NCBI GenBank assembly: GCA_030583725.1
Contig: CP129472.1
Location: 465,902-529,901, forward strand
Direction: 5' to 3'
Length of the DNA: 64,000 nt
Origin: a bacterium
Lineage (GTDB): Bacteria; Patescibacteriota; Microgenomatia; UBA8517
Shown here: piece after piece, positions 3,036 through 41,353 of the stretch
Numbering within the stretch: position 1 is the first letter of the stretch
Layout of the letters: the number at the start of each line of letters is the position of its first letter
Notes under the pieces: model-generated
Seen by the model: only the letters and a program-made list of their open reading frames with translations
What the model was told of the DNA's origin: nothing
The model's database searches: none
Translations under genes and position numbers: made by a program

Positions 3036-3989
3036 CTATCTTAAGTACCGATTAATATTTTGATTATGTTCATCTAGTGTTCTGGCATAATGAATCTTGC
3101 CACTATTGTCATGGATGTAATACCAGTATTCGCTCTCAACAGAATTAATTACAGCATTAATTGTAGACGCACCAGGATTTGCAATTGGTGCGGGGGGGAG
3201 TCCAAGATTCTTGTATGTATTAAAGGGTGACTCGATACCTTTATCTTGTGCATATGCAGGATCCCAATATTTATTGGTCAAGGATACATTTTTATATTTA
3301 ATATTATCTTTAGCATATTGCAGTGTTGCATCTATTTGTAACGGCCAACCGTTTTCTAATCTTTTATACAAAACTCCAGCAACTACTGGTTTTTCCTCAT
3401 TTGTAAACGTTTCTCTTTCCAAAAGGGAAGCCATGATAACCTGTTCTTTGGTTGCATTCTTTACTTTTTGGTCAAATGTTGTGGTTAATCTATTAACAAC
3501 CTGGGTAGCAGATGCTGACTTGGGAAATAAATAAGTATCGGGATAGAGATAACCTTCTTTACCTACGGTTAATCTTAAAAACTCGTCAATAAAATCTGTT
3601 TCCTTGTTTAAGACGATTGCAAACCTAATTGCAATTTCTTCACGTCTTAAACCCTCAGGAATAGTTACCCAAAATTCTGTCGGACCTTTCTTTAGTCTAT
3701 CAACCATTTCAACCAAACTTAGGTTTTGAGTAAGTTGGAACTCACCTGCTTGGATTTTATTTGTATTATTTGTCAGTTGCACATAGAACTTGAAAGCGAT
3801 ACCACTTCGTATAAGCTTGGCGCTTTCCAAGTTATTACCTATTTGGGCAACCGAAGAACCTTTGTTAATTAAAAAATCAACCTCACCACTATTATCAGAG
3901 ACTGGCAAAAGTAGACCCCTAAAGTAGAAAATAAAAACTGCAACAAGTACGAAAGGTAAAAGAATTACTGTAAGTAGTTTAAATTTCAT
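3036..3989 (-). CDS. mltG: endolytic murein transglycosylase MltG (YceG-like)
   Basis: Motifs YLYPDTYLF, LLERET and GLPPAPIANPG, plus an N-terminal transmembrane segment. The likely true start is the internal Met (MKFKLLTVILL); the track ORF extends to 4046. Confidence 0.8.
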   Translation of the reverse strand: MKFKLLTVILLPFVLVAVFIFYFRGLLLPVSDNSGEVDFLINKGSSVAQIGNNLESAKLIRSGIAFKFYVQLTNNTNKIQAGEFQLTQNLSLVEMVDRLKKGPTEFWVTIPEGLRREEIAIRFAIVLNKETDFIDEFLRLTVGKEGYLYPDTYLFPKSASATQVVNRLTTTFDQKVKNATKEQVIMASLLERETFTNEEKPVVAGVLYKRLENGWPLQIDATLQYAKDNIKYKNVSLTNKYWDPAYAQDKGIESPFNTYKNLGLPPAPIANPGASTINAVINSVESEYWYYIHDNSGKIHYARTLDEHNQNINRYLR

Positions 3990-4176
3990 TAAGAAGTGCA
4001 CGCCTATATTTTTTGGTTTTCTCATTATAAATATAAATCCTACCACACTTGCAAGTTACCATTGTCCCATACTTATGACTTTTACTTTCTGCGTTTGATA
4101 ATGAAACACCACAGCCAACACATTTGCCTTGTGACATTAACCAAGCCTGAATAGGAGCGATTACATTTTTAAGCAT
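3979..4176 (-). CDS. small zinc-ribbon protein (CxxC...CxC)
   Basis: The 65-aa ORF contains CVGCG and CKCG cysteine pairs. It sits between ruvX and mltG, like the small yrzB-type genes in the Firmicutes alaS-ruvX-mltG cluster. Confidence 0.4.
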   Translation of the reverse strand: MLKNVIAPIQAWLMSQGKCVGCGVSLSNAESKSHKYGTMVTCKCGRIYIYNEKTKKYRRALLNEI

Positions 4177-4534
4177 TGTCTAGATATGATTGTAACATAA
4201 TAGTTGCTGCAAATGCATCTTCCATCTCGCGTCGTTTTTTTCTACCCATACCCGATTGAATTGACATAACTTGGGCATCATGTGAACTTAGTGTTTCATC
4301 AAACGTTTCAGCTCTAAATTGTTTAGCAAACTCGTTTTGCTCCTTTGCCATTTCACCCTCTGAAATACCAACAACTACTTTTTCTATTTTTTGCTTTTCA
4401 ATTATCCTTTGAATGTGGGCAATCATTTTATCCCAATCTCTGTAGCGAATTACTTGATATGGTTCAGCAAGTTTGCCATCAGAAACAGCAAGACCTATTT
4501 TTCTTCTACCATAATCAATGCCTAAAAATTTCAT
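4169..4534 (-). CDS. ruvX: Holliday junction resolvase-like RuvX/YqgF
   Basis: The N-terminus FLGIDYGRRKIGLAVSD is the canonical YqgF/RuvX RNase H-fold motif. Length is 121 aa. Confidence 0.85.
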   Translation of the reverse strand: MKFLGIDYGRRKIGLAVSDGKLAEPYQVIRYRDWDKMIAHIQRIIEKQKIEKVVVGISEGEMAKEQNEFAKQFRAETFDETLSSHDAQVMSIQSGMGRKKRREMEDAFAATIMLQSYLDNA

Positions 4535-4554: not shown

Positions 4555-5238
4555 TTAGCTTACCACTCTTGCCCTAACAATTAAACGTTTTGGATTTCTG
4601 GGGTCTCCTGGTGGGGTACAAGTTACCAGTGTTAAAAACGAATCAGAATTGTTTTGTTCTAAAATCTGAATGTCTGTTGGATATATTTCAAACAGTTCTT
4701 CAACTACAAAATCGTATGAAACACCATCAAATTTAACAAAAATCTGATCACCATTTTTTAAAGTAGGAAGTGTTGAGAATATCGCCATATAATTTTTAGG
4801 GTTATAGAAAATTGGTAGAATTGAATGACCGAAAATTACAGCATTGCCGTTTCTACCCGGCAGGGCTGTTCCAGGATACTGTACTAGGTGCTTGGACAAA
4901 TCTTCACCCCCGATTGCGACAATGGCATCTTCTATTTTTAGTTTCGGGATTGTAATTGTGTAAAAATCTACTTTTGACTCCTCAAAATCTTTTGTGTCAG
5001 CCGTAGGAAACCAGGTTGATGCTTTGGTATAGTCGGTGGGTTCTTTTGTTTCATCTTTTTTCTCTAATACTAAAGGGGATAGAAGGGTGGAATAAGATCT
5101 TGCATTGGTCAGTTGATAAACAACAATGGGCCAAATTGAAACAAACAATATAGTAAGCCCAAAAGCGCTTAATCCAAACGACAATAATTTAATAACTTTT
5201 CTTCTGTGACTAAAATTCATTTTTTTAAAGTAAATCAA
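4555..5238 (-). CDS. sortase (membrane-anchored cysteine transpeptidase)
   Basis: N-terminal transmembrane anchor. The TLVTCTP motif matches the sortase catalytic TLxTC signature, with a downstream Arg (RLIVRARV). Its stop abuts the start of the upstream gene (5238/5239). Confidence 0.75.
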   Translation of the reverse strand: MIYFKKMNFSHRRKVIKLLSFGLSAFGLTILFVSIWPIVVYQLTNARSYSTLLSPLVLEKKDETKEPTDYTKASTWFPTADTKDFEESKVDFYTITIPKLKIEDAIVAIGGEDLSKHLVQYPGTALPGRNGNAVIFGHSILPIFYNPKNYMAIFSTLPTLKNGDQIFVKFDGVSYDFVVEELFEIYPTDIQILEQNNSDSFLTLVTCTPPGDPRNPKRLIVRARVVS

Positions 5239-7302
5239 CTACTCTTCAACGGCAAAACTCACTGTCATTCTTTTGGGTATATGGGGAAGAGTTCCCAGCT
5301 TACCGGGGAATAACGGTTTTATTTTAAACTCTGCCTTAGTAAATCCTGTAATACTAGAGAAGTAGTCCTCGGCAAGTTCAGGGTATTTACCTGCTATTTT
5401 CTTTGCAATTTCACCCTCGTCTATGTCTGGTAACAGATTTGCCGTTACTCTTACATTAAAGAGGTCATCTTCAGCCATGATTTCGTATTCAATCTGATCA
5501 TCTTTTAGAACAAAATTCGTAGGAATCTTGTCATTTAGTATTTCTTTAGATTTGGCTAAGAGTTCATCTTTAGAAATGGATATAATTTTAACATCAAGTT
5601 TCAACGACAATTTGATAGATGTGGCCTCATCACCAACTTTATTACTAAACTGTTCGTCACGAGAAACAATTTCAACTGACGAGTCAATAAGTATCTGATT
5701 GGAATCAAGTTTTTGTGAAATTTGAGATTTTGCGTCATTTAGTAATTCTTCTGTTAACTCATCTAGTATTTTCTTTCTATCGCTTTCACTAACTGCCGAA
5801 ATTTGACGACTTGAACCACCACCAAAACCATCAAGGGAAATGGCATCAACCTCAGCTTTTGGATAATTCCCCACCTTAAATATCTCGTCTTTGGATATGT
5901 TATATTCTGAACCAATACTTCCCGCTTCCACCTCTATTTCTCCAGTTCCAGGATTTGATGGAGACAATGCACCAGAGATAGATGCTGAACTTAAAGTTAC
6001 AAATTTTAAATCTGACGAGGACAACAAAGTACTTCCCGCTGCTAAGTTGATAGGAAAGGCTGTGCCATTTTGAACCTTTACCTTACCTTTTGACTTTTCT
6101 CCAACAGTTTTTGTGCCAGTTGTAGAAATAGTTTTTTCACCACTGACGCTTATCTCATTTTCACTAGTCTTAATACTTGAATCTGACTGTATCTCTATAT
6201 TCTCCTCAATTTGTTTTGGTGAAACATATATGGTCACCACAGCTTTAGGTAAAAACCACCACAAAAGAAAACTTGCCACAACTAAAGTCAGGGCTCCGGA
6301 ACCCGCAACTACCAACATCTTGTTGTTTAAATTTAGTTTAGGCATTTTTATACTAGGCCTACTAAAAGTGGTTAGACCTTTAATTTTATTTTTTAAATCA
6401 GGAAGCTGTATTTTTTGGGTTATTGGAAGATCTGGTTCTTCTTTGACAAAACCCAACTCTTCAGCAGTCAGTTTATTAGGCTCTTGAATGTTTTCAACCT
6501 CTTCTGATTCCAAACTTTCAACAACTGTTTCATCAGGCAGTTGACTGTCTTCAACACCACCAACAGCCCCCAGTTCAGATCCACCAGCTAAGGCAACTGC
6601 AATTATCTTTTTCTCTGGGTCAAAAACTTCTATCTTTGGCGTATGGATAAACTTGCTTTGACCTACTTTTTCCCAATCCGAGTTGTTTAAAATTTCTTTA
6701 ACATCTTCTAGTTCTTGCTCTTTCTGGTTATACAAAACGATCCTAGAAGGAAAATTTTCAACTGTATCTTTTAATCTTGTGAGTCCTTCCATTAAATCAT
6801 CTTCCACCGAAACACTTCTTAAAACGTTTGTAACACCAGATAAAGTTCCCAAATTAAATATTGCAATTTCTATATTCTGGTCACTAAGTCCTAAGACTAA
6901 AGCATTAGTGTCGCCATGATCTTCACTTTTAAGAAAGTGGGAGATAGCTTCAGAAAGTACTACAAAACCAGAGGGAACAAGTGATAGCTTCTCACAAATT
7001 ACTTTTAACTCCTCAAGTTTTTCAGGTTTTATGTTTCCATCTTCTATCCAGTTGTTAGATAAACCGAATACCGTCCTACTGGGATCCATTGACTCTTCAG
7101 GTAAAAACTGTGAACAAGCGGATAGTGAAGTATCAATTGCTTCCAATAAATTGTCTTCCCAACGGGTTGGTGGAGATTTTGCGATAACTTCTACCTTACC
7201 ATCTTTTATTTGCCAGACGGCAGAAGTAATCCATTCCGGCTCAATTAAAAGAGCCCAAAAATTCTCTGTATTAGGTTTTTGTTTTTGAAGAAAGTCCAAC
7301 AT
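5239..7302 (-). CDS. hypothetical bitopic membrane protein (N-terminal cytoplasmic domain possibly FtsA/PilM-like, large S/T-rich ectodomain)
   Basis: 687 aa with a single transmembrane helix (MLVVAGSGALTLVVASFLLWWFL) near residue 340. The N-terminal roughly 250 aa (WALLIEPEWITSAVWQIKDGKVEVIAKSPP...) resemble the start of actin-fold FtsA/PilM-type proteins, but this assignment is tentative. The gene is tightly coupled to the sortase gene. Confidence 0.5.
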   Translation of the reverse strand: MLDFLQKQKPNTENFWALLIEPEWITSAVWQIKDGKVEVIAKSPPTRWEDNLLEAIDTSLSACSQFLPEESMDPSRTVFGLSNNWIEDGNIKPEKLEELKVICEKLSLVPSGFVVLSEAISHFLKSEDHGDTNALVLGLSDQNIEIAIFNLGTLSGVTNVLRSVSVEDDLMEGLTRLKDTVENFPSRIVLYNQKEQELEDVKEILNNSDWEKVGQSKFIHTPKIEVFDPEKKIIAVALAGGSELGAVGGVEDSQLPDETVVESLESEEVENIQEPNKLTAEELGFVKEEPDLPITQKIQLPDLKNKIKGLTTFSRPSIKMPKLNLNNKMLVVAGSGALTLVVASFLLWWFLPKAVVTIYVSPKQIEENIEIQSDSSIKTSENEISVSGEKTISTTGTKTVGEKSKGKVKVQNGTAFPINLAAGSTLLSSSDLKFVTLSSASISGALSPSNPGTGEIEVEAGSIGSEYNISKDEIFKVGNYPKAEVDAISLDGFGGGSSRQISAVSESDRKKILDELTEELLNDAKSQISQKLDSNQILIDSSVEIVSRDEQFSNKVGDEATSIKLSLKLDVKIISISKDELLAKSKEILNDKIPTNFVLKDDQIEYEIMAEDDLFNVRVTANLLPDIDEGEIAKKIAGKYPELAEDYFSSITGFTKAEFKIKPLFPGKLGTLPHIPKRMTVSFAVEE

Positions 7303-9001
7303 ATATTCTGATTACGCCGGAGCCAATTTTCTCCTGCTTAATCATTCTAACATTCCCAACAAGTTTTGTGCTAGTAACGTGAGGTCCACCACAAATTTCT
7401 CTTGAAAAATAGTCTTCATTTGAACCTATTGTGTACATTTTTACCTTTTCACCATATTTTTCAGCAAAAAAATGCAAGGCACCTTTTTCAATTGCATCTT
7501 CTGGAGTAGTCTCTATAAATGTAACAGGTAAGTCTTCATCAACCACACGATTGATTGTGTCAAAAACATTAGTTACCTGTTCCTCATTTAATTTTTCAGA
7601 ATATGAAAAGTCAAATCTAAGTCGGTCTTTCGTAATATGACTTCCTTTTTGAGAAACTACGTCACCCAAAACTTTACGAAGTGAGGAATGTAATAAATGT
7701 GTTGCTGTGTGTAATTTAGTTGTTTCTTCCGAAATGTCTTCAAGCCCACCTTTAAAAATTCCAGTTGAGAGACTTTTTGAAGCTGTTCTGTGTTTTTCAA
7801 ATTCATCACCAAATTCTTTTAAATCTACTTTTTGTCCTTTGTCGGTAAACAACTCAATCGTAAGTTCAAGTGGAAAACCATATGACTGATACAAGTCAAA
7901 AGCAATTTTACCTGTAATTTTTTTGACTTTTTTGATTTCTTTTAAACCATTATCCAGACTTACCTTAAACTTCTTTAATTCCTCCAAAATAACAGTATTC
8001 CTAATCACCTTGTCTACATCGGAAAATTTTATAGCCATTCTTCTTATTAGTCTTCTTAATATGTATCCGTGCATTTTATTTGAAGGAACTACACCAGCAT
8101 TAATTAATGCTTCTGATGCCCTTAAATGATCTGCAACTATTCTAAAATTCTTTTTCTCATCTTCATACTTTTTACCTGTAATTTTTTCCAACTTCATAAT
8201 TGTTGGCCAAAAGATATCAGTTTTAAAAACATCTGGGTCATTATTTAATGCAGCGGTTATTCTTTCCAGTCCACCACCGAAATCAACATTTTTTTGTGGA
8301 AGTTCTTCAAGACTTCCATCTTTCATCTTTTTGTACTGAATAAAGACTGAGTTACCAATTTCTAAAAACCTACCACAGTCACAATTTGGGTGGCATTTTT
8401 CACTTTTAAATTCACTATTTTCGTGTAATTTTAGCTTTTCTCCAAAGTCAAAAAATATTTCAGAGTCTGGTCCACCAATTTCACCTTCAGGCATTTCATC
8501 AGGTGTTCCGCTTCTACTCCACCAATTCTTTTTTACACCATATTCAAAAATGTGATTTTCAGAAACCCCCAGATCTTTCCAGATATTGAAACTTTCGGTG
8601 TCTTCTGGAACTGAGTCATTACCCTCAAAAACTGAAACATATAGCTTTGCTGGTGAAAGTTTTAATTCTTTTGTTAAAAATTCCCATACCCAAGGTAGCT
8701 GTTCCTCTTTAAAATAATCACCTAAACTCCAGTTGCCCAACATCTCAAAATAAGTGGTGTGTCTATTGTCCCCAACCTCTTCAATATCTTGAAGTCTAAT
8801 TGAAGGCTGGCTGTCAACTAGTCTGGTCCCGTCAGGATGTTTTTCTCCCATTAAATATGGAACTAGGGGTTGCATACCTGAACTTGTAAAAAGGGTTGTT
8901 GGATCTTTTTCTAAAACAAGTGGAGCAGGAGGAATTATTTTATGCCCCCTTTTTTCGAAGAAACGCAAATATTTTTCTCGGACTTGATTACTTGCAATCA
9001 T
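7271..9001 (-). CDS. alaS: alanyl-tRNA synthetase, short form lacking the C-Ala domain
   Basis: The N-terminus FFEKRGHKIIPPAPLV...DPTTLFTSSGMQ is the class II AlaRS catalytic core. The editing-domain HxxxH (HTATHLLH) and CGGPHV motifs are present. The protein ends after the editing domain at 576 aa. Confidence 0.9.
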   Translation of the reverse strand: MIASNQVREKYLRFFEKRGHKIIPPAPLVLEKDPTTLFTSSGMQPLVPYLMGEKHPDGTRLVDSQPSIRLQDIEEVGDNRHTTYFEMLGNWSLGDYFKEEQLPWVWEFLTKELKLSPAKLYVSVFEGNDSVPEDTESFNIWKDLGVSENHIFEYGVKKNWWSRSGTPDEMPEGEIGGPDSEIFFDFGEKLKLHENSEFKSEKCHPNCDCGRFLEIGNSVFIQYKKMKDGSLEELPQKNVDFGGGLERITAALNNDPDVFKTDIFWPTIMKLEKITGKKYEDEKKNFRIVADHLRASEALINAGVVPSNKMHGYILRRLIRRMAIKFSDVDKVIRNTVILEELKKFKVSLDNGLKEIKKVKKITGKIAFDLYQSYGFPLELTIELFTDKGQKVDLKEFGDEFEKHRTASKSLSTGIFKGGLEDISEETTKLHTATHLLHSSLRKVLGDVVSQKGSHITKDRLRFDFSYSEKLNEEQVTNVFDTINRVVDEDLPVTFIETTPEDAIEKGALHFFAEKYGEKVKMYTIGSNEDYFSREICGGPHVTSTKLVGNVRMIKQEKIGSGVIRIYVGLSSKTKT

Positions 9002-9547: not shown

Positions 9548-10168
9548 TCATTCTACATTAATATTAACTATTTTTTCAGTTGTTTTTCCTGATCTTGAAA
9601 CAGCAATGAATTTTAAATTGTTGGTTTCAGGAGTTATCTGAAGTTCTGTTGCGAAATTGCCTTCTTGGTCAATTATTATTGGTTGGTTATTAATTGTTAA
9701 AAATACATCAGTTGTCGTTCTACCTGAAACTGAAACTTTATTATTTAAAACAACTCCATTATTTTTAGGAGAAAATATTTCTAAATTTGGTGGTTTTATA
9801 AATTTAAAATATTCAAAGCCCAAGTAACTTAAAACCATTAAGACCAATAACGTTACACCTAAACCAAAAGCGAGCTTTGGTGACCAAAAAAAATTGGTCT
9901 TAACGTCTGGTTTTGGATTAATTGGTAACTTTTGAGGCGGATAATCTCGTCTTAATATTGCATTGGCATTTTCTGGAGGAATGTCTAACATAATTGCCAA
10001 GTTTCTAACAAATCCTGAAACTACAGGAAATGCAGGTAATTTATCCCAAGCATTCTCTTCTATTAATTTTATAAACTCAATCTTAATCTTTGTCTCTCTT
10101 TCAATTTCACTTAAACTAATTTTTTTTAAGTTTCGAGCCGTTTTTAATATTTCCCCAATAGTGTTCAT
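9548..10168 (-). CDS. rodZ: RodZ-like cytoskeleton protein (XRE-type HTH plus transmembrane segment)
   Basis: The N-terminus IGEILKTARNLKKISLSEIERETKIKIEFIKLIEENAWDKLPAFPVVSGFVRNLA matches the RodZ helix-turn-helix domain. A single transmembrane segment is followed by an extracytoplasmic domain. Confidence 0.65.
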   Translation of the reverse strand: MNTIGEILKTARNLKKISLSEIERETKIKIEFIKLIEENAWDKLPAFPVVSGFVRNLAIMLDIPPENANAILRRDYPPQKLPINPKPDVKTNFFWSPKLAFGLGVTLLVLMVLSYLGFEYFKFIKPPNLEIFSPKNNGVVLNNKVSVSGRTTTDVFLTINNQPIIIDQEGNFATELQITPETNNLKFIAVSRSGKTTEKIVNINVE

Positions 10169-27599: not shown

Positions 27600-28318
27600 T
27601 GCATTATTTCCTCTAACATGTTTCTATAATATCTTATCATTGGTACAACCGTAGAATAAGACTGTCTTACAGGTCCAATTACTCCTATTGCGCCATTTTT
27701 ATTTTTAACCTTAAAATGAGCAGCAACAATCCCCACAGGTAAGTTTCTTAATCCCATATCTTCTGCAAACAAGACATCGTATGTCGTCTCAATTGGGAAC
27801 CTATTAAAGAAAAAGTCCATTAATACTTCATCCTCGTCAATAAAATCAAATAACGAGGTGCAAGATCTAACGTCACCAAACTCTGGATATGTAAAAATGT
27901 TTGAATAACCAGCCTGCCAAACAGAACCATCTTCAGTTGCAGCAATTGCCATACTACCTGTCCTATCTGCTAGAGAATGTGTTAGTTCGTCTAAAAATTT
28001 GTTTAAGTTTTCTCTTTCGTCCCAAACCTCTTCTTTGGCCTTAACTTCATCTGCTAAGCTCATTTGTTTTTCTTCCATCAACTGATCTACATAGAATTTC
28101 ATTGCTCCTGACGTTGGAATTCTTCCTGCTGAAGTGTGGGGTTGTTTTAAAAATCCAGACTTTGTAAGAAGATTCATCTCATTCCTAATGGTAGCGGGGG
28201 AAACACCTAGGTTATATTTTTTTTCTAACTGACTAGAACCAACAGGTTCTGCTGTCTCTATATACTCATCAATTAAAGCCTTTAGTATCTGTGTTTGCCT
28301 TGCACTAAGTGAGTTCAT
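27596..28318 (-). CDS. hrcA: heat-inducible transcription repressor HrcA (short form)
   Basis: The N-terminus LSARQTQILKALIDEYIETAEPVGSSQL is the HrcA winged-helix signature. A CIRCE operator lies immediately upstream. Confidence 0.8.
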   Translation of the reverse strand: MNSLSARQTQILKALIDEYIETAEPVGSSQLEKKYNLGVSPATIRNEMNLLTKSGFLKQPHTSAGRIPTSGAMKFYVDQLMEEKQMSLADEVKAKEEVWDERENLNKFLDELTHSLADRTGSMAIAATEDGSVWQAGYSNIFTYPEFGDVRSCTSLFDFIDEDEVLMDFFFNRFPIETTYDVLFAEDMGLRNLPVGIVAAHFKVKNKNGAIGVIGPVRQSYSTVVPMIRYYRNMLEEIMQ

Positions 28319-28319
28319 C

Positions 28320-28346
28320 TTAGCAGTAATATAACAAGAGTGCCAA
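28320..28346. promoter_or_regulatory. CIRCE-like HrcA operator (TTAGCAGTA-N9-GAGTGCCAA)
   Basis: Matches the CIRCE consensus TTAGCACTC-N9-GAGTGCTAA at 15 of 18 arm positions. It begins 2 nt upstream of the hrcA ATG. Confidence 0.6.
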
Positions 28347-28356
28347 CAGTTGTCAA
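28328..28356 (-). promoter_or_regulatory. sigma70 promoter for hrcA operon overlapping CIRCE (TTGACA-17-TATATT)
   Basis: Minus-strand reading: TTGACA (plus 28351-28356), a 17-nt spacer, TATATT (plus 28328-28333, inside the CIRCE spacer). The ATG lies 10 nt after the -10 box. Confidence 0.55.
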
Positions 28357-28360
28357 GAGG

Positions 28361-28759
28361 TTAATTTGGGTATATCAAGAGGTTTGGAATACGTGAGAAG
28401 TGGTTAGTGTTCCTTGTAATCAAAGTTATATTGTTAACCATTGCTGTTGCACCAATTATCAAATCAAAATCTTCAAGCCTTGTGCCCTTTTTCTCTAAGT
28501 CTATTTTTAAATCAAGAAATTTATCTGCAATTTTTAAATCAAGATCAAGTATTTTTATATCTAACTCAATTATAAAATTTGTAAATTGTTTAGTTGCCTT
28601 AGTGGGGTCTTTTAATTTTCTAATTCCATATGTTATTTCAGACCAATTGATAATGCTCATAAAAAGACCTTCTTTTGAAATACTAATGATTGAAGAAAGA
28701 TAATCACTTTTATTATTTAAGTGATCAATAATTACATCGCTATCAAGTAATAGCCCCAT
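28361..28759 (-). CDS. PIN-domain toxin (VapC-like)
   Basis: The N-terminus LLLDSDVIIDHL and the distribution of acidic residues fit a PIN fold. It lies immediately downstream of an antitoxin gene. Confidence 0.65.
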   Translation of the reverse strand: MGLLLDSDVIIDHLNNKSDYLSSIISISKEGLFMSIINWSEITYGIRKLKDPTKATKQFTNFIIELDIKILDLDLKIADKFLDLKIDLEKKGTRLEDFDLIIGATAMVNNITLITRNTNHFSRIPNLLIYPN

Positions 28760-28764
28760 CTTGT

Positions 28765-29037
28765 TTAATCAATAAAATTAAATTTTTTCCTAAAACTCTT
28801 TGCATTTTTTTCTATCACTTTTAATTCTTTTTTATCCCACACACCCGCATATTTAGCCATAATTTCAGATCTAGAAGGAGAACTTGTTGCTGGAGCCACC
28901 ACTTTAATAATTTTAATCATGGGTTTACCCATTTTTTCAACAATTATTTCATAATCGTTATAATAAGCGAGGTTCATCAACTCACCAAAATTCTTTCTAG
29001 CCTCATATGCAGATATTGTTTTTAAATTCTTCAACAT
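28765..29037 (-). CDS. Phd/YefM-family antitoxin
   Basis: ISAYEARKNFGELMNLAYYNDYEIIVEK matches the Phd/YefM N-terminal fold. A 5-nt gap separates it from the PIN gene. Confidence 0.6.
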   Translation of the reverse strand: MLKNLKTISAYEARKNFGELMNLAYYNDYEIIVEKMGKPMIKIIKVVAPATSSPSRSEIMAKYAGVWDKKELKVIEKNAKSFRKKFNFID

Positions 29038-29038
29038 A

Positions 29039-29066
29039 ACTAGTCAAATTGTACAATTTGACTAGT
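29039..29066. promoter_or_regulatory. 28-bp perfect palindrome, putative toxin-antitoxin operator
   Basis: ACTAGTCAAATTGT|ACAATTTGACTAGT begins 2 nt upstream of the antitoxin ATG. It overlaps the -10 box (TACAAT) of a TTGACA-17-TACAAT promoter; the -35 box is at plus 29071-29076. Confidence 0.6.
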
Positions 29067-29089
29067 TGGTTGTCAAGTATTTTTTAAAA

Positions 29090-30796
29090 TTAGGGAGTTA
29101 CTTCATCTGTCATTGCAGTTGAATATTTTTGACCCAAAACCATTCTGCGAAACAGGTTGATAAAAATATCCAGCTCTTTAGACTTCAAAATTTTTAAAGT
29201 TAGGATATAAACAATGGTACCAATTAGTCCTACTATTATGGTTAATATAAGTAAGTTAACTGCGTACCTAGTGTCTAATACAAACCGGTCAAAAGGAAGG
29301 TCAAGGTTCGTTATGAAAGACAACTTCTTAATCCAAACAGACTTATCAAAAAACTTCAAAATAAAATACATTGTAGAACCTGAAACTAACCCACCTATAA
29401 TTGATTTTAAAATTGGCAAATAGAGGGCTGTGTTTAAACCATTGTGAATTCGTCTAGTAATTAAAATGAAGAGAATAACAGATTGAATAATCATAGAAAT
29501 TGAAAAGGCTAAAGCCAAACTCCAAACAGGTAGTTTATAAACTATAACTAGGATGTAATTTAGTAAGATATTAAACAATAAAGTTACGACTGAGACCTTA
29601 ACTGGTGTTCTTGTATCACTCAATGCATAAAAACTTCTGGCCAAGATTGAATTGGCCGCTTGGGAAAAAATGCCAATTGCAAATGCAGAAACCACCAACG
29701 AAGTTTGAACTGTAGCATCCCAAGTAAAAATATCTGTTCCAAAAATCAATCGAACAACAGGAATTCTAGCAACAACCAAAAAAGCAACTATGGGCATCAT
29801 CAAAAACACCACTTGATTTAAAGTTTGATACAGAGTCTTTTTAAAAGCTGGGATGTCATCGGCCTGAGCTGAAAGGGTTGGGAGCGCCGCTTTGGCAATA
29901 GATGTACCAAATAGGCCCACAGGGAGAAGTTGGATTGAATTACCAAATGTAAAATACGTATAAGCAGGGACTGATATTAGAGATGCAAACGTAAGCTCAA
30001 CAAATTTAGCAACCTGCAAAAAAGAGACTTCAATAATTCTCGGTAGTGAAAGTCTGGCAATTTTTTTAACATCGTTTGTGATCTTTAAGCTTCTGCTGAA
30101 CCTAAATCCTAACTTATAGGCAAGTGGTAATTGAATTGAAAAATGCAAAATTGATCCCAAAACTACACCGATTGCTGGTGCATATAGACCATATTTATTT
30201 GAAAAAACCACAGTTGCTATAATTATTCCAAGATTGTAAAAAAGTGGCGCTAAGGCAGGTACAAAAAAACGTTTTGATGATTCTAAAACAGCAGTCAAGA
30301 CATAGGAGATAACAAAAAATCCCTGTGCTATAAATAAAATTCGCGCAAAGTTGGCAATTAAATTTTGGTCATCTGGACTAAAACCTGGAGTTAGCCATTT
30401 ATAAATTAAGGGAGCGAATATAACAACTATCGATGCAAGAGTCAAAAAGATAAGTCCTCCCCAATTAGCAACAACACCGGCAACTCTCCAAGCTCTACTT
30501 TTTGATATTTTTAATGTTTTTGTAAAAACTGGTATAAAAGCTGAAGCAAATGTGCCAAAAACCAAAACTTCAAATATTGTGTCTGGCAACCTAAAAGCTG
30601 CAAAGAACAAGCTCAAGTCTTGAGGCATAAAATAATGAGCCAACACTCTTTGGCGAACCAACCCCAAGAGTCTTGAAACAACAATCATTATCATGATTAA
30701 TGTTGCAGCAGATAAAACAGAGTTCTGTTGCTCAGTAAGCAATGATTTGAATTTATTGAAAAAGGATTTTAATTTTGTTGGGATTGTTAATTTCAT
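29090..30796 (-). CDS. murJ: lipid II flippase MurJ (MviN)
   Basis: 568 aa and polytopic. The N-terminus SRLLGLVRQRVLAHYFMPQDLSLFFAAFRLPDTIFEV is the MurJ signature. Confidence 0.85.
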   Translation of the reverse strand: MKLTIPTKLKSFFNKFKSLLTEQQNSVLSAATLIMIMIVVSRLLGLVRQRVLAHYFMPQDLSLFFAAFRLPDTIFEVLVFGTFASAFIPVFTKTLKISKSRAWRVAGVVANWGGLIFLTLASIVVIFAPLIYKWLTPGFSPDDQNLIANFARILFIAQGFFVISYVLTAVLESSKRFFVPALAPLFYNLGIIIATVVFSNKYGLYAPAIGVVLGSILHFSIQLPLAYKLGFRFSRSLKITNDVKKIARLSLPRIIEVSFLQVAKFVELTFASLISVPAYTYFTFGNSIQLLPVGLFGTSIAKAALPTLSAQADDIPAFKKTLYQTLNQVVFLMMPIVAFLVVARIPVVRLIFGTDIFTWDATVQTSLVVSAFAIGIFSQAANSILARSFYALSDTRTPVKVSVVTLLFNILLNYILVIVYKLPVWSLALAFSISMIIQSVILFILITRRIHNGLNTALYLPILKSIIGGLVSGSTMYFILKFFDKSVWIKKLSFITNLDLPFDRFVLDTRYAVNLLILTIIVGLIGTIVYILTLKILKSKELDIFINLFRRMVLGQKYSTAMTDEVTP

Positions 30797-30821
30797 TTTT
30801 TTTGATTATACTACCCACATG
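30785..30821. promoter_or_regulatory. back-to-back divergent promoters for murJ and rpsT in a 22-bp intergenic gap
   Basis: Plus strand: TTGTTA (30785-30790), a 16-nt spacer, TATACT (30807-30812), then the rpsT ATG at 30819. Minus strand: TATAAT lies 8 nt before the murJ ATG. Confidence 0.4.
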
Positions 30822-31085
30822 CCAGTAACAAAAACAGCCAAAAGAGCTTTGAGGGGTTCAAAGAGGAAAGAAATTGTTAATAAAATTACACTTTCTGGAC
30901 TTGAAATTGCTGTAAAAAAAGCAAAAAAGTCAAAGGATTTAAAGTCAATTCAGAAAGCTACTTCACTTACAGACCGAGCAGCAAAAGAAAACACCATTCA
31001 CAAAAATAAAGCTGGTCGAATTAAGTCACAACTTGCTAAGTTGATGCCAGCAAAACTTCAAACTCTTTCAAAAAAGAACAAATAA
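30819..31085 (+). CDS. rpsT: 30S ribosomal protein S20
   Basis: MPVTKTAKRALRGSKRKEIVNKI... is an S20-type basic N-terminus. Length is 88 aa counted from the internal Met of the track ORF. Confidence 0.8.
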   Translation: MPVTKTAKRALRGSKRKEIVNKITLSGLEIAVKKAKKSKDLKSIQKATSLTDRAAKENTIHKNKAGRIKSQLAKLMPAKLQTLSKKNK

Positions 31086-31100
31086 TGCTAAATTGGGTAT

Positions 31101-31664
31101 ATGCCCATTAATAAGTCCAAAATAATTAATTTACTTCCTAATGATGATTTTCAGAGTACTACTTTTGGTAGGATACTAAAATGGGCGCTGTCCTCGTTCC
31201 GATTTATGGTTATCGTCACTGAACTAATAGTGATGTCTGCATTTTTATCTAGATTTTGGCTAGACGCCAGAAACTCAGACCTGAATGAAGAACTAAATGT
31301 GAGCATGGCTCAAGTCAACGCATACCAAGATGTGGAGCAAGAATTTAGGCTTTATCAAAACCAGCTTCAGGTTGCAAATACTCTATATTTGGATGGAAAA
31401 AACAGTGAATTAATTCAAAAAATTACAAACGTACTTCCAAACGACTTAATTGTTTCATCTATACAACTAACTGGTGAGGACCTCCAAATTAAAGCGGTTT
31501 CTTTTTCAGAACAAGCTGTTGCCCAGTTTTTAGTAAATCTTGAGGGTCTTGAAATATTTGATAAGGTTGAATTATCTCAAGTGGCCTCGAGTATCGAAAA
31601 CAGCTTTGTCACCACGTTCACTATTAGTGCAAAGTACAAACAAAAAACAGGAGGGTTAAACTAA
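31101..31664 (+). CDS. pilN: type IV pilus assembly protein PilN-like
   Basis: The N-terminus INLLP is the PilN hallmark. A single transmembrane segment and a coiled-coil periplasmic domain follow. Confidence 0.65.
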   Translation: MPINKSKIINLLPNDDFQSTTFGRILKWALSSFRFMVIVTELIVMSAFLSRFWLDARNSDLNEELNVSMAQVNAYQDVEQEFRLYQNQLQVANTLYLDGKNSELIQKITNVLPNDLIVSSIQLTGEDLQIKAVSFSEQAVAQFLVNLEGLEIFDKVELSQVASSIENSFVTTFTISAKYKQKTGGLN

Positions 31665-31665
31665 T

Positions 31666-32331
31666 ATGGCACAAGGATGGAGGAGAGACTACTCAAGATA
31701 TAAGGGATTCTTTTTAAATATACTAAATATTTATAAATCCAAACCAACATTGATAGTATATTTGGAAATTATTCTGTCTTTAACAACAATTATAGTGTTT
31801 TCTATCTTTGCCATTAAACCTACGGTTTTGACCATAATTGAACTTAATAACGAAATAGGAAACAAAGAAAGTGTAATTGTCTCTCTAAACCAGAAGATTG
31901 GAAACCTAAAAACAGCATCTTTAGTTTTACAAAACCAGTCCTCAAGATTAAATTTAATTGATCAAGCCGTGCCAAAATCTGCAAACCTTGAAACAGTAAT
32001 TGATCAGGTGGAGAAATTGGCAGCTACCCATCAGGTAGGAATATTAAATATTGCTTCAACAGACTTGTTTCTCTCGGGTGCATCAAGCAAAAAGGCAAAG
32101 GCAGGAGATTTAAAAGCTTTACCTGGTGAAGTGAATGAGCTTAATTTAACAATTTCGGTGACAGGTAGCTATCAAGACCTTTTAAACTTTTTGAAATCTA
32201 TAGAAAACTTAAGACGTCCTATAAAAATAGATACCTTTGTCATCAATGCAACTAACTCATCTGATAGTACTAGGGTTATTGTATTGACACTTACAGGTAG
32301 ATTGCCATTTATCAATCAATCTAAAATATAA
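31666..32331 (+). CDS. pilO: PilO-like pilus assembly protein
   Basis: Bitopic protein with a coiled coil directly after pilN (2-nt gap). The PilO assignment rests on architecture and position. Confidence 0.5.
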   Translation: MAQGWRRDYSRYKGFFLNILNIYKSKPTLIVYLEIILSLTTIIVFSIFAIKPTVLTIIELNNEIGNKESVIVSLNQKIGNLKTASLVLQNQSSRLNLIDQAVPKSANLETVIDQVEKLAATHQVGILNIASTDLFLSGASSKKAKAGDLKALPGEVNELNLTISVTGSYQDLLNFLKSIENLRRPIKIDTFVINATNSSDSTRVIVLTLTGRLPFINQSKI

Positions 32332-32333
32332 AA

Positions 32334-32537
32334 ATGCAAAAAAGTAAATTACCAAGTCTAGTTATATTATTAATACTGACACTAATTACAGTTGTGTTCT
32401 GGATTGTGTTTACTGTTTATAGAACATACATCACAGATGACACCAATGTGAATGTTCCAAGAGAGGTACTACTCCCACTTTCACCAACCCTTAACGAAAG
32501 TACTATTGAAGTTTTGGAATCTAAAATATACCCTTAA
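32334..32537 (+). CDS. small membrane protein with KLPS N-terminal motif
   Basis: 67 aa with an N-terminal hydrophobic helix. The N-terminus MQKSKLPSLVILL resembles that of the next gene (MIKKYKLPTIIGIVVL). Confidence 0.35.
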   Translation: MQKSKLPSLVILLILTLITVVFWIVFTVYRTYITDDTNVNVPREVLLPLSPTLNESTIEVLESKIYP

Positions 32538-32542
32538 AAAGA

Positions 32543-33871
32543 ATGATTAAAAAGTATAAATTACCCACCATAATTGGCATTGTGGTTTTGATTTTTGGAA
32601 TTATTGCTGGAGTTTTTCTAATAAACTCAAGGCAAGTTTTTAAGTTAGGCGCAAACATAGATGCCATTCCTAAAAATGTTAGGTTTACAAACATAACTAA
32701 CTCAAGCTTCACTGTAACTTGGACTACAGATATTGAAAGCACTGGGTTTGTCAAATGGGGAACCAGTGAGCTAACTCTTAGTAAAGTGGCACTTGGCGAA
32801 GGAATTGGAAAAAACTTTGTCCACTCTGCCACAATAATGGGTATAAACCCAAACACAAAAATTTATTTAAAAATAAATTCTAACAGCAATGACTATGACA
32901 ATAATGGTATTCCTTGGCAAGAAACAACAGAAAATATTGTAACAACCTCAGACCAAAATTTAATTGCTTCAGGAAATATTTTAAAACCAGATGCATCAAC
33001 ACCCGCGGTTTCAATTGTTTATTTAACAATTAATGGAATCGTGCTTTCTGCTATTTCATCACAAGGAGGATCATATGTAATACCAATATCAACCTACATA
33101 TCAAACCTACCAGATACCACCCCCATTGAAATATCTGTTCAGGGTGGTCAAAACTCGCTAGCCCAAGCTGTAATTTACCCCAAATATATTAAATCTGTCC
33201 CAACCATTGTACTAGGAAGAACATATGATTTTAGAACTTTGCAAGAGGATATGTCAGGAAACTTACCAGAAAGTAATCTGACCGTTCCTGAGTCTGTAGA
33301 AGTTTCATCAAGATTTGAAGTTACAAAGTCAGAAACTACAAAAACTGTTGATAATGTCCTAGTTGAATCAATTGAAGAAGGGGAAATTATAACAACAGTT
33401 AATCCAGAATTCTTTGGTTCTGGACCAAAAAACACAGAAATTGAAGTAATCGTTGAATCAGAAATGCAATCACAAACAATTACCGTTTCTTCAAATGGAA
33501 GTTGGAAGTGGAGTCCTCCAAATGACCTAGCACCTGGAGAACATAAACTCACTGTTAAATGGAGAGACGCTTCTGGAATTTTAAGAACTATCACAAGAAC
33601 TTTTGTAGTTAGTGCAGCAGAAGGGCCTGCTTTTGAAGCAACACCATCGGCATCCTTAAGTCCTAGTCCAACATCTACAGCTATTGCTACAACTGTTGCA
33701 TCACCTACTGCCAGCTCATCATCAACGCCAATTTCAGCAACACCCACAGCAACACTTCCACCAACACCAGAAACTGGAAGCTTGACAGCTACCATTGGCT
33801 TATTCATAATGGGTATAGGAATACTTTTGTCATCTATTTTTATTTGGAACAAACAATATGCCCAAGGATAA
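32543..33871 (+). CDS. cell-surface protein: N-terminal signal/anchor, FN3-like domain, S/T/P-rich stalk, C-terminal PETG plus transmembrane sorting signal
   Basis: FTVTWTTD, a fibronectin-III-like strand. The C-terminus is ...SPSPTSTAIATTVASPTASSSSTPISATPTATLPPTPETGSLTATIGLFIMGIGILLSSIFIWNKQYAQG: a motif, a hydrophobic helix and a short basic tail. Confidence 0.6.
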   Translation: MIKKYKLPTIIGIVVLIFGIIAGVFLINSRQVFKLGANIDAIPKNVRFTNITNSSFTVTWTTDIESTGFVKWGTSELTLSKVALGEGIGKNFVHSATIMGINPNTKIYLKINSNSNDYDNNGIPWQETTENIVTTSDQNLIASGNILKPDASTPAVSIVYLTINGIVLSAISSQGGSYVIPISTYISNLPDTTPIEISVQGGQNSLAQAVIYPKYIKSVPTIVLGRTYDFRTLQEDMSGNLPESNLTVPESVEVSSRFEVTKSETTKTVDNVLVESIEEGEIITTVNPEFFGSGPKNTEIEVIVESEMQSQTITVSSNGSWKWSPPNDLAPGEHKLTVKWRDASGILRTITRTFVVSAAEGPAFEATPSASLSPSPTSTAIATTVASPTASSSSTPISATPTATLPPTPETGSLTATIGLFIMGIGILLSSIFIWNKQYAQG

Positions 33872-35039: not shown

Positions 35040-35052
35040 TAGTGATAAATAT

Positions 35053-35643: not shown

Positions 35644-35690
35644 CTTCTTGGATTTGTAAGATTCTAGTTCTTAAATTTGTTTCCTTACAA

Positions 35691-41315: not shown

Positions 41316-41353
41316 GTTAATATTGTATTTGCTTAAAGTAAGATATACAAGTT

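What the first reader, a model, noticed from the sequence alone, without database searches (positions are those of the whole stretch)
5239..7302. Large bitopic protein with possible actin-fold cytoplasmic domain, coupled to sortase
The N-terminal roughly 250 residues begin like FtsA/PilM-type ASKHA proteins (hydrophobic dipeptide, Leu-Ile-Glu, then Lys-Asp-Gly-Lys-Val). One transmembrane helix follows, and then a roughly 340-aa Ser/Thr-rich ectodomain. The combination of a cytoplasmic scaffold domain with an ectodomain and a co-encoded sortase has no obvious described counterpart. It could couple a cytoskeletal element to surface-protein display, or it could be the missing PilM-like partner of PilN.
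Basis: inference. Interest (0 to 1): 0.6.

Follow-up and report, generated by a model that had tools for sequence, protein, structure and literature searches.

The report
Actin-fold membrane protein beside sortase

Summary
The ORF (5239-7302, minus strand, 687 aa) is real. Its N-terminal domain finds more than 1,200 relatives (50%-identity clusters), nearly all of the listed ones full length; every named relative is from Microgenomates (Woese-, Gottesman-, Shapirobacteria).

Residues 13-246 form a minimal ASKHA (actin/PilM/FtsA/Ppx) fold. No sequence method detects it, and it has no extra subdomains. The three glycine-rich nucleotide-binding loops are absent family-wide, so it is probably a pseudo-ATPase scaffold.

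An acidic disordered linker follows, carrying a conserved [DE][LF]GF motif, and then one N-in transmembrane helix. The ectodomain is not a Ser/Thr-rich stalk. It is a well-folded homologue of phage baseplate protein J (Mu gp47 / T4 gp6), yet it lies among housekeeping genes and was not found on viral contigs.

A sortase lies directly downstream in 77 of 80 informative loci, often overlapping, including relatives with 24-36% identity. The truncated alaS upstream is equally constant, so a functional link to sortase is likely but unproven.

The idea that this is the missing PilM for PilN is not supported. The best reading is a lineage-specific transmembrane scaffold for sortase. The function has not been tested and the architecture has not been described.

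The parts
5239..7302 (-). Whole gene 'X' (687 aa + stop): a bitopic membrane protein whose named relatives are all from Microgenomates
   Evidence: ORF list. 100% identical to an NCBI protein, with 451 full-length homologues. 1,242 representatives at 50% identity, nearly all 670-820 aa.
6565..7266 (-). Cytoplasmic minimal ASKHA-fold domain (residues 13-246) with degenerate nucleotide-binding loops
   Evidence: AF2 model: pLDDT 88.2, pTM 0.84, two beta3-alpha-beta-alpha-beta-alpha halves. Foldseek against PDB: best matches PilM at E 2e-9, then Ppx/GppA and FtsA. Column frequencies in 318 members show no DxG, DxGGG or GG loops. No Pfam, NCBIfam or PDB sequence hit.
6319..6564 (-). Acidic, variable, predicted-disordered cytoplasmic linker (residues 247-328)
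   Evidence: pLDDT below 50 from residue 255. Length and sequence are variable in the alignment. Composition: 13.6% E and 10.2% K.
6445..6462 (-). Conserved short linear motif [DE][LF]GF (E281-V286) inside the linker
   Evidence: G284 is 92% and F285 is 93% conserved among 318 members, while the flanking columns are mostly gaps or variable.
6250..6318 (-). Single transmembrane helix (residues 329-351), N-in / C-out
   Evidence: Hydropathy maximum. One peak in 264 of 318 members. Net charge +3.2 before and +1.2 after the helix. Helical in the AF2 model.
5242..6249 (-). Folded extracellular module (residues 352-687) homologous to phage baseplate protein J / gp47 / gp6
   Evidence: AF2 pLDDT 87.6. 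Foldseek PDB top matches are baseplate wedge proteins of cyanophage A-1(L), XM1, phi812, diffocin and Mu, E 3e-6 to 1e-4 over about 340 columns. The named matches among the top BFVD hits are almost all baseplate J or wedge proteins.
5815..6102 (-). Baseplate-J barrel core (residues 401-496), the part recognisable by sequence
   Evidence: Pfam PF04865 has E 0.041 in this protein. 28 of 31 aligned relatives hit it at E<=0.01, best 1e-6. Local Foldseek matches cover about 105-120 aa at rmsd 3-4 A and about 20% identity.
4555..5238 (-). Sortase with an N-terminal membrane anchor. Its start abuts X's stop; NCBI calls the start 18 nt further in.
   Evidence: Pfam Sortase E 3e-25. Below the cut-off of every NCBIfam sortase class; class C scores best at 60.7 bits against a cut-off of 160. 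His (GHS), Cys (TLVTC) and Arg (RLIVRA) are readable in the translation. Directly downstream of X in 77 of 80 informative loci.
7271..9001 (-). Truncated alanyl-tRNA synthetase (576 aa). Its 3' end overlaps the start of X by 32 nt. It is the first gene of the apparent alaS-X-srt-ruvX-mltG transcription unit.
   Evidence: ORF list. Pfam tRNA-synt_2c + tRNA_SAD in orthologous loci. Directly upstream of X in 79 of 82 loci. A promoter-like site at 9037-9009 (10 of 12 matches) is only a consensus match.
3036..4534 (-). ruvX (4169-4534) and mltG/yceG (3036-4046), the downstream members of the cluster
   Evidence: Pfam YceG E 2e-71. RuvX and YceG are annotated in the syntenic loci. tblastn synteny.

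Best explanation
Shown:
- X is a bitopic membrane protein whose named relatives are all from Microgenomates.
- Inside the cell it carries a stripped-down ASKHA (actin/PilM/FtsA-type) domain made only of the two RNase-H-like core halves. Its canonical phosphate-1, phosphate-2 and adenosine loops are not conserved.
- The same domain keeps a set of nearly invariant polar residues: D57, E118, R162, S163, D169, E172, R176, R187, H220 and E243.
- A disordered acidic linker with a conserved [DE][LF]GF motif leads to one N-in transmembrane helix.
- Outside the cell there is a complete, folded baseplate-J (gp47/gp6-like) module.
- The gene is embedded in the housekeeping cluster alaS-X-sortase-ruvX-mltG. 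Its stop typically overlaps or abuts the sortase start.

Inferred:
- X is a non-enzymatic transmembrane scaffold or adaptor that works with the co-transcribed sortase.
- The J-like ectodomain comes from a protein family that builds dimers and six-fold rings. It would sit on the same side of the membrane as the sortase catalytic domain and would position, cluster or gate the enzyme or its substrates at the wall.
- The pseudo-ASKHA domain and the GF motif would dock the complex to a cytoplasmic partner or to each other. This would couple surface-protein anchoring to an intracellular cue such as the site of wall growth or division.

The logic resembles GspL or PilM-PilN, where an actin-fold domain that is not an ATPase transmits across the membrane.
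For: - Fold: AF2 model with pLDDT 88 and pTM 0.84. 584 Foldseek PDB matches at E<=1e-3; the listed ones are nearly all ASKHA proteins, headed by PilM, Ppx/GppA and FtsA.
- Degenerate ATP site: among 318 members the phosphate-1 position is E in 61% with no following Gly, phosphate-2 has only G138 at 66%, and the adenosine loop reads N/D-G/Q-K.
- Conserved polar residues and the GF motif.
- Topology: positive-inside charge bias and a single TM peak.
- Ectodomain: AF2 pLDDT 87.6. Baseplate J or wedge proteins head both the PDB and BFVD searches. Pfam Baseplate_J is hit in 28 of 31 members.
- Not phage-borne or defence-linked: no PHROG or PADLOC hit, none on IMG/VR contigs, housekeeping neighbours.
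- Partnership: sortase is directly downstream in 77 of 80 informative loci with a median gap of -9 nt. It is kept in 7 of 7 relatives at 24-36% identity, even where ruvX/mltG are displaced (L083, L087) or a gene is inserted before X (L081).
- Wall context: the window also encodes FemAB-family enzymes, an LCP enzyme and MurJ, so a Gram-positive-type wall that sortase could use is plausible.
Against: - The whole 12-gene neighbourhood (RNase J-ftsK-rodZ-like-alaS-X-srt-ruvX-mltG-rpoBC) is syntenic across the class. alaS-X adjacency (79 of 82) is as constant as X-sortase adjacency. Adjacency alone therefore does not prove a functional link.
- One short contig (L008) has X followed directly by ruvX with no sortase.
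- No sortase substrate (LPXTG-type signal) was found in the window. X itself has no sorting signal.
- No interaction, localisation or oligomer prediction could be run.
- Loss of the glycine loops does not strictly exclude binding of a nucleotide or another ligand. The many invariant charged residues could equally indicate an enzyme.
Confidence: 0.4

Rival explanations
1. X is a divisome or elongasome component, for example a membrane-tethered FtsA/MreB surrogate or an FtsA-FtsQ-like fusion. It would organise wall synthesis, and the sortase would simply be a neighbour in a conserved housekeeping cluster.
For: FtsA is among the best structural matches. ftsK, a RodZ-like HTH_25 protein and mltG lie in the same conserved cluster. 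alaS-X adjacency is as conserved as X-sortase adjacency.
Against: X has no 1C or 2B subdomains and no ATP loops. It has no Pfam FtsA, MreB or FtsQ/POTRA signal. The ectodomain is baseplate-J-like, not POTRA. X and the sortase are the two lineage-specific insertions into an alaS-ruvX-mltG arrangement that, from general knowledge, is widespread, and they often overlap.
Confidence: 0.2
2. X is the PilM-like partner of the PilN/PilO pair at 31101-32331, forming a type IV pilus alignment complex.
For: PilM is the top Foldseek match (E 2e-9). PilN in the window has the canonical N-terminal INLLP PilM-binding motif, and no pilM lies next to it; rpsT does.
Against: - The model has only the two core halves. 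From the secondary-structure order, it has no insert equivalent to the subdomain that forms PilM's peptide groove.
- Ppx/GppA and FtsA score almost as well as PilM.
- There is no Pfam PilM hit at E<=1 and no hhalign signal to PilN or PilO.
- X is itself membrane-anchored, lies 24 kb away on the other strand, and is fixed next to alaS and sortase in about 80 genomes.
- A Microgenomates genome is reported to have an ordinary pilM inside its pilus locus (PMC7143001).
Confidence: 0.04
3. X is a substrate or acceptor rather than a scaffold. The sortase would ligate surface proteins or pilins onto a lysine of X's ectodomain (an 'NYPK' motif reminiscent of the YPKN pilin motif), making X a membrane-anchored base for a covalent surface polymer.
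For: The N479-Y-P-K482 motif is invariant in the Woesebacteria subgroup. The best, though sub-threshold, NCBIfam sortase match is class C, the pilus polymerases.
Against: Across 318 members, K482 and P481 are each conserved in only 56%. The distant members that still keep the sortase lack the motif. No pilin-like or LPXTG genes lie in the conserved neighbourhood. The sortase has no recognisable class C features and falls below every class cut-off.
Confidence: 0.08
4. The cytoplasmic domain is an active ASKHA enzyme (a kinase, phosphatase or ATPase with a non-canonical site). X would then be a transmembrane signalling or energy-coupling protein.
For: The cytoplasmic domain holds ten nearly invariant charged or polar residues, including E118 at the position of the catalytic Glu that follows strand 5 in Hsp70/MreB-type ASKHA proteins (the mapping is by inference). 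Ppx/GppA phosphatases are among the top structural matches.
Against: All three glycine-rich loops that hold the phosphates and adenosine are missing family-wide. There is no sequence similarity to any ASKHA enzyme family.
Confidence: 0.12
5. X is a domesticated or remnant phage or contractile-injection-system baseplate protein, or a phage-related defence or receptor element, as the NCBI name 'baseplate J/gp47 family protein' implies.
For: Pfam Baseplate_J hits in most members. Foldseek matches are to phage and diffocin baseplates.
Against: No tail, sheath, gpW, gpI or other phage genes lie in any of about 87 loci. The position among alaS/ruvX/mltG/rpoB is fixed. There is no PHROG or PADLOC hit and no relative on IMG/VR contigs. 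Phage J proteins (from general knowledge) are soluble virion proteins, whereas X has a TM helix and a cytoplasmic domain.
Confidence: 0.04

Closest known systems
GspL / PilM-PilN type assembly-platform proteins (type II secretion and type IV pili)
   Same: The architectural logic is shared. A cytoplasmic actin-fold (ASKHA-like) domain that serves as a docking module rather than a hydrolase is connected through one transmembrane segment to an extracytoplasmic domain. PilM is the best structural match of X's N-terminal domain.
   Different: X lacks the inserted subdomain of PilM and GspL. It has no sequence-level similarity to them. Its outer domain is baseplate-J-like rather than the ferredoxin-like PilN/GspL fold. 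It is linked to a sortase and housekeeping genes, not to pilus or secretion ATPases.
Phage baseplate protein J (Mu gp47, P2 gpJ, T4 gp6; Pfam PF04865)
   Same: The ectodomain aligns over about 340 columns with complete J-like wedge proteins. It shares the barrel core at about 20% identity and rmsd 3-4 A. Pfam recognises the barrel in 28 of 31 relatives.
   Different: X is membrane-anchored and fused to a cytoplasmic domain. It is encoded in a housekeeping operon with no other tail or baseplate genes, and it is absent from viral contigs. The overall domain arrangement differs (TM-score about 0.2).
FtsA (bacterial actin of the divisome)
   Same: ASKHA fold (TMq up to 0.56), membrane association, and neighbouring envelope and division genes (ftsK, rodZ-like, mltG).
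   Different: X has no 1C or 2B subdomains and no ATP-binding loops. It has an integral TM helix plus a large ectodomain instead of a C-terminal amphipathic helix. It is not next to ftsZ or ftsQ.
Minimal ASKHA proteins of about 250 aa (e.g. BT_3980 / PDB 3hrg; BcrAD/BadFG-type activators such as MbdQ)
   Same: Similar size and a core-only architecture. The TM-scores are balanced in both directions (0.50/0.52), with the lowest rmsd among the matches at 5-7 A.
   Different: Those proteins are soluble, and where they have been studied they bind nucleotides. X is the cytoplasmic head of a bitopic protein with degenerate loops.

Membership tests
ASKHA superfamily (actin/Hsp70/sugar kinase fold) | Two RNase-H-like halves, each beta3-alpha-beta-alpha-beta-alpha, with a cleft between them | tested here: met
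   The AF2 secondary-structure order shows exactly this pattern twice. There are 584 Foldseek PDB matches at E<=1e-3, and the listed ones are nearly all ASKHA proteins.
ASKHA superfamily (actin/Hsp70/sugar kinase fold) | Phosphate-1 (DxG), phosphate-2 (DxGxGT) and adenosine (GG) nucleotide-binding loops | tested here: not met
   Column frequencies in 318 members show no conserved Asp-x-Gly after strand 1, only G138 (66%) in hairpin 2, and N/D-G/Q-K in place of GG. The mapping of motifs to strands is by secondary-structure order, not by a superposition.
PilM (type IV pilus assembly, Pfam PF11104) | Sequence match to the family profile | tested here: not met
   There is no Pfam or NCBIfam hit in the N-terminal 350 residues, even at E<=1. 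A family profile against PDB sequences finds no PilM.
PilM (type IV pilus assembly, Pfam PF11104) | Extra subdomain forming the groove that binds the PilN N-terminal INLLP peptide | tested here: not met
   The model has 254 structured residues with no insertion between the core elements. The Foldseek alignments with the ~350-residue PilM chains run to 334-376 columns, gaps included, against a 270-residue query, so roughly 100 PilM residues have no counterpart. No complex prediction could be run.
PilM (type IV pilus assembly, Pfam PF11104) | Genomic linkage to pilN/pilO/pilB/pilC | tested here: not met
   pilN/pilO lie at 31101-32331 on the + strand, 24 kb away. In about 87 loci X is flanked by alaS and sortase.
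FtsA | 1C subdomain, C-terminal amphipathic membrane helix, linkage to ftsQ/ftsZ | tested here: not met
   X has no insertions, an integral TM helix plus an ectodomain, and no ftsZ or ftsQ among its neighbours.
GspL-type bitopic platform proteins | Cytoplasmic actin-like domain + one TM helix + extracytoplasmic domain | tested here: met
   The domain order is established. This shows shared architecture only.
GspL-type bitopic platform proteins | Homology to GspL and linkage to GspE/GspM secretion genes | tested here: not met
   GspL is not among the top 50 structural matches. There is no Pfam T2SS hit and no secretion genes in the neighbourhood.
Baseplate J / gp47 / gp6 (Pfam PF04865) | J-type barrel domain and overall colinearity with J proteins | tested here: met
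   Pfam is hit in 28 of 31 members, best E 1e-6. This protein itself scores E 0.041, below the cut-off. Foldseek against PDB and BFVD gives E down to 2e-7.
Baseplate J / gp47 / gp6 (Pfam PF04865) | Part of a phage tail or contractile-injection gene cluster, with gpW/gpI partners | tested here: not met
   No such genes occur in any locus. There is no PHROG hit and no relative on viral contigs.
Sortase substrates (cell-wall sorting signal proteins) | C-terminal LPXTG-like motif + hydrophobic segment + basic tail | tested here: not met
   X ends '...GTLPHIPKRMTVSFAVEE' with no terminal hydrophobic segment. The conserved element there is [LF]-P-[HR] (P673 99%), not LPXTG.
Anti-phage defence systems (PADLOC) | Match to a known defence protein model | tested here: not met
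   No PADLOC hit for X.

The most novel reading that the evidence does not exclude
X and its sortase would form a previously unrecognised envelope machine specific to Microgenomates. An exapted phage-baseplate wedge module would assemble into a ring or platform on the outer face of the membrane to organise sortase-mediated surface display, possibly the structures these ultra-small bacteria use to attach to hosts. A nucleotide-blind actin-fold domain and a [DE][LF]GF peptide would control it from the cytoplasm. This would be the first case of a baseplate-J module recruited into a housekeeping cell-envelope protein. It would also be the first dedicated transmembrane partner of a sortase with an actin-fold cytoplasmic domain.
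Probability: 0.25. Interest if true: 0.8.

Novelty: new variant of a known kind. Interest (0 to 1): 0.55.

Why it matters
Microgenomates are abundant, uncultured, ultra-small bacteria, and almost nothing is known about their envelope biology. This protein is a core gene that is fixed in position across the class. It joins three things not previously seen together: an actin-fold domain, a phage-baseplate module and a sortase partner.

If the pairing is functional, it gives a concrete handle on how these organisms organise surface-protein anchoring. It would also be a clear example of a phage structural module exapted for a cellular role. In addition, it corrects a misleading database name ('baseplate J/gp47 family protein') that suggests a prophage gene.

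Tried and rejected
- **Sequence searches for the N-terminal domain found nothing.** This covers Pfam and NCBIfam at E<=1, phmmer and a family profile against PDB sequences, and hhalign against the window's DnaK, PilN and PilO. Only structure prediction revealed the fold.
- **Phage or defence origin rejected.** There is no meaningful PHROG hit, no PADLOC hit, and no relative on IMG/VR viral contigs.
- **X as a sortase substrate rejected.** X has no sorting signal. A scan of all window ORFs for LPXTG-type signals found only one spurious hit.
- **Pilin-like 'NYPK' lysine.** It is conserved in only 56% of the family, so it is kept only as a low-probability rival.
- **Insertions between X and sortase.** In L033 the insert is a 1,440-aa ORF with no assigned function. 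In L074 it is a 230-aa ORF that reads like a short-chain dehydrogenase; no family scan was run on it. Neither gave a functional clue.
- **The sortase homologue search was uninformative.** It returned only close Woesebacteria relatives (65-81% identity), so it could not show whether the pairing extends beyond the class.
- **Literature searches.** Four queries found no description of the family.
Full report
**1. The observation**

It runs from 5239 to 7302 on the minus strand and encodes 687 aa. It is identical to an NCBI protein annotated 'hypothetical protein QY322_02685' on an 841,695-bp contig.

- The quoted strings are in the translation: F-W-A-L-L-I-E21 and K33-D-G-K-V.
- There is one strongly hydrophobic segment, residues 329-351.
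- A gene whose product matches Pfam Sortase (E 3e-25) begins where the ORF ends.
- The gene is clearly real. A database search returned 451 homologues, and the 120 listed align over essentially the full length.
- A search of 1.84 billion cluster representatives with only the first 300 residues found 1,242 hits. Nearly all are 670-820 aa long, so the domain combination is fixed.
- 'Ser/Thr-rich' is only weakly true. S+T is 18.4% in the ectodomain against 12.8% in the N-terminal domain.

**2. The cytoplasmic domain**

No sequence method recognises the domain. Pfam and NCBIfam give nothing at E<=1. Neither the protein nor a 68-sequence family profile finds a solved structure by sequence.

AlphaFold2 with that alignment gives a confident model of residues 1-270 (pLDDT 88.2, pTM 0.84). 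Its secondary-structure order is beta-beta-beta-alpha-beta-alpha-beta-alpha, twice, which is the signature of the ASKHA fold.

Foldseek against the PDB returns 584 matches at E<=1e-3, and the listed ones are nearly all ASKHA proteins:
- *Pseudomonas* PilM is best (E 2e-9, TM-score on the query up to 0.57).
- Ppx/GppA, FtsA, ROK/MecR2, BT_3980 and benzoyl-CoA-reductase-type subunits follow closely.

The domain is a minimal core of about 235 residues, without the extra subdomains that PilM, FtsA or actin insert into the core.

**3. ATP-binding motifs**

I mapped the three canonical loops by strand order and tabulated 318 full-length family members.
- After strand 1 there is no Asp-x-Gly. E21 occurs in 61%, followed by Pro/Glu.
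- The second hairpin has only G138, at 66%, instead of DxGxGT.
- The loop after strand 4' reads N/D-G/Q-K instead of Gly-Gly.

The canonical nucleotide site is not conserved. Even so, the cytoplasmic domain carries most of the family's invariant polar residues: D57, E118, R162, S163, D169, E172, R176, R187, H220 and E243 are each at least 93% conserved. The ectodomain's invariant positions are mostly Gly, Pro and Ala.

I read this as a conserved binding surface on a pseudo-ATPase. A non-canonical enzyme cannot be excluded.

**4. Linker and membrane topology**

- Residues 247-328 are acidic, variable in length and predicted disordered.
- They contain a short motif, [DE][LF]GF, that is conserved in 92-93% of members. 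This is typical of a docking peptide.
- 264 of 318 members show one hydrophobic peak. The 15 residues before it carry a net charge of +3.2, against +1.2 after it.
- The N-terminus is therefore cytoplasmic and the C-terminal 336 residues are outside. That is the same side as the catalytic domain of the N-terminally anchored sortase.

**5. The ectodomain**

AlphaFold2 gives a confident model (pLDDT 87.6).

- Foldseek against the PDB is headed by baseplate wedge proteins of the J/gp47/gp6 type: cyanophage A-1(L), XM1, phi812, diffocin and Mu. E-values run from 3e-6 to 1e-4 over about 340 columns.
- Against predicted viral structures, the named matches among the top hits are almost all baseplate J or wedge proteins.
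- Global TM-scores are low (about 0.2) because the domains are arranged differently.
- The barrel core superposes at 3-4 A with about 20% identity.
- Pfam Baseplate_J is matched by 28 of 31 aligned relatives, best E 1e-6. This explains the NCBI name 'baseplate J/gp47 family protein' given to some relatives.

The protein is nevertheless not phage-borne. It has no PHROG or PADLOC hit and no relative on IMG/VR contigs. No tail genes occur in any locus examined.

**6. Genomic context and distribution**

76 loci from GTDB species representatives were retrieved. All with informative titles are Woesebacteria, Microgenomates or Patescibacteria. Some carry evidently generic titles.

- These loci share the order RNase J - ftsK - rodZ-like - alaS - X - sortase - ruvX - mltG.
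- Counting all loci, the sortase starts within 200 nt of X's end in 76 of 79 informative cases, with a median extrapolated gap of -9 nt.
- One of the three apparent exceptions (L083) is adjacent according to its gene calls.
- The real exceptions are two insertions (L033, L074) and one short contig where ruvX follows X directly (L008).
- Seven relatives at only 24-36% identity, including Gottesmanbacteria and Shapirobacteria, all keep alaS-X-sortase. This holds even where ruvX and mltG are pushed away (L083, L087) or a NUDIX gene separates alaS from X (L081).

The caveat is that alaS-X adjacency (79 of 82) is just as constant, and the whole region is syntenic. Adjacency therefore supports a functional X-sortase link but does not prove it. 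Two points favour the link. X and the sortase are the two lineage-specific genes sitting inside an alaS-ruvX-mltG arrangement that, from general knowledge, is widespread. Both also place their main domains outside the membrane.

**7. The PilN idea**

The window does encode PilN (31101-31664) and PilO (31666-32331), preceded by rpsT rather than pilM. PilN has a textbook N-terminal 'INLLP' motif. Even so, X is a poor candidate for its partner:
- it lacks the subdomain that forms PilM's peptide groove;
- it has no profile similarity to PilM;
- it is itself membrane-anchored;
- it is 24 kb away on the other strand;
- its conserved neighbours are alaS and sortase.

A published Microgenomates genome reports an ordinary pilM within its pilus locus (PMC7143001). 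A canonical pilM elsewhere in this genome is therefore the simpler explanation. I could not read beyond the window to confirm this.

**8. Most likely mechanism**

The anatomy and context above are shown. What follows is inferred.

X is a transmembrane scaffold for the sortase. Its baseplate-J-like ectodomain belongs to a family that builds dimers and six-fold rings in phage baseplates (general knowledge). It would cluster or position the sortase, or its substrates, at the wall. The nucleotide-blind actin-fold domain and the GF peptide would dock to a cytoplasmic partner or to each other. This would tie anchoring to an internal cue such as the site of wall growth.

The window also encodes FemAB-family enzymes, an LCP enzyme and MurJ. 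This is consistent with a Gram-positive-type wall that a sortase could use. I give this model about 0.4.

Rival explanations:
- a divisome or elongasome role with the sortase as a bystander (0.2);
- a non-canonical enzyme or signalling domain (0.12);
- X as a covalent acceptor through its NYPK lysine (0.08; the motif is only 56% conserved);
- a PilM substitute (0.04);
- a phage remnant (0.04).

**9. Comparison with known systems, and novelty**

The closest logical analogue is GspL, or the PilM-PilN pair: an actin-fold cytoplasmic domain, one TM helix and an outer domain. X fails the membership tests for PilM, FtsA and GspL on sequence, subdomains and context. It fails the contextual test for baseplate J. 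Four literature searches found no description of the family.

I therefore rate it as a new variant of a known kind (bitopic platform proteins with an actin-fold cytoplasmic head). Its domain combination has not been described, and its function is untested.

Interest is moderate to high for people working on the CPR envelope or on sortases. It is limited by the absence of any direct functional evidence and by the ambiguity of synteny in a highly syntenic region.

Noticed in passing
window 31101-32331 (+), with 30693-31085 upstream: pilN and pilO follow rpsT directly, with no pilM beside them. The PilN N-terminus 'MPINKSKIINLLPNDD' carries the canonical PilM-binding INLLP motif. The 30693-31085 ORF contains an S20-like sequence, 'MPVTKTAKRALRGSKRK...'. 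The canonical pilM must lie outside the window, if it exists.
   Followed up: partly
window 5419-5442 (-), residues 621-628 of X: The ectodomain contains 'ANLLPDID' (N622 invariant in the 31-sequence alignment A1, P625 at least 93% conserved family-wide). It resembles PilN's cytoplasmic 'INLLPNDD' motif. hhalign picks it up as the only, non-significant, match (Prob 0.2). It is probably chance, and it lies on the wrong side of the membrane.
   Followed up: partly
window 7271-9001 (-): The alanyl-tRNA synthetase is only 576 aa, and its orthologues in the class are 570-623 aa. This is shorter than the roughly 870 aa typical of bacterial AlaRS (general knowledge), so it appears to lack the C-terminal domain. 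Its last 32 nt overlap the start of X.
   Followed up: no
window 9548-10168 (-): A RodZ-like protein with an N-terminal HTH_25 domain, a TM helix and a C-terminal Glucodextran_B-like beta domain. It is conserved next to ftsK in every syntenic locus. It is a candidate cytoplasmic or membrane partner for X's actin-fold domain, by analogy with MreB-RodZ. This was not tested.
   Followed up: no
window 40368-41315 (-), 43180-44978 (+), 29090-30796 (-): An LCP (LytR-CpsA-Psr) enzyme, two tandem FemAB-family genes and MurJ. Together they indicate a Gram-positive-type wall with peptide cross-bridges, which is the usual sortase acceptor.
   Followed up: no
window 35691-38096 (-): An 801-aa membrane protein that combines GT87-like and PMT (protein O-mannosyltransferase) family matches. 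It may be a fused double glycosyltransferase.
   Followed up: no
window 1-28000 versus 28000-44000: GC skew is strongly negative (-0.1 to -0.25) where genes run on the minus strand, and close to zero or positive after about 28 kb where the gene orientation changes. This recalls the strand-composition disparity reported for a Microgenomates genome (PMC7143001).
   Followed up: no
L033 8261-12583: In one relative, a 1,440-aa ORF with no transmembrane segment evident by eye and no assigned function is inserted between X and the sortase. In L074 the insert is a 230-aa ORF that looks like a short-chain dehydrogenase (no family scan run). Neither suggests a function.
   Followed up: partly
L001 11093-11290 and the equivalent position in L003, L004, L081-L087: A conserved 65-68-aa ORF lies between ruvX and mltG in most relatives. 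In this window only 122 nt separate the two genes, so the small ORF appears to be absent here.
   Followed up: no
window 5857-5868 (-), residues 479-482 of X: An 'NYPK' motif in the ectodomain is invariant in Woesebacteria and resembles the YPKN lysine motif of sortase-polymerised pilins. Across the whole family, P481 and K482 are each conserved in only 56%.
   Followed up: yes
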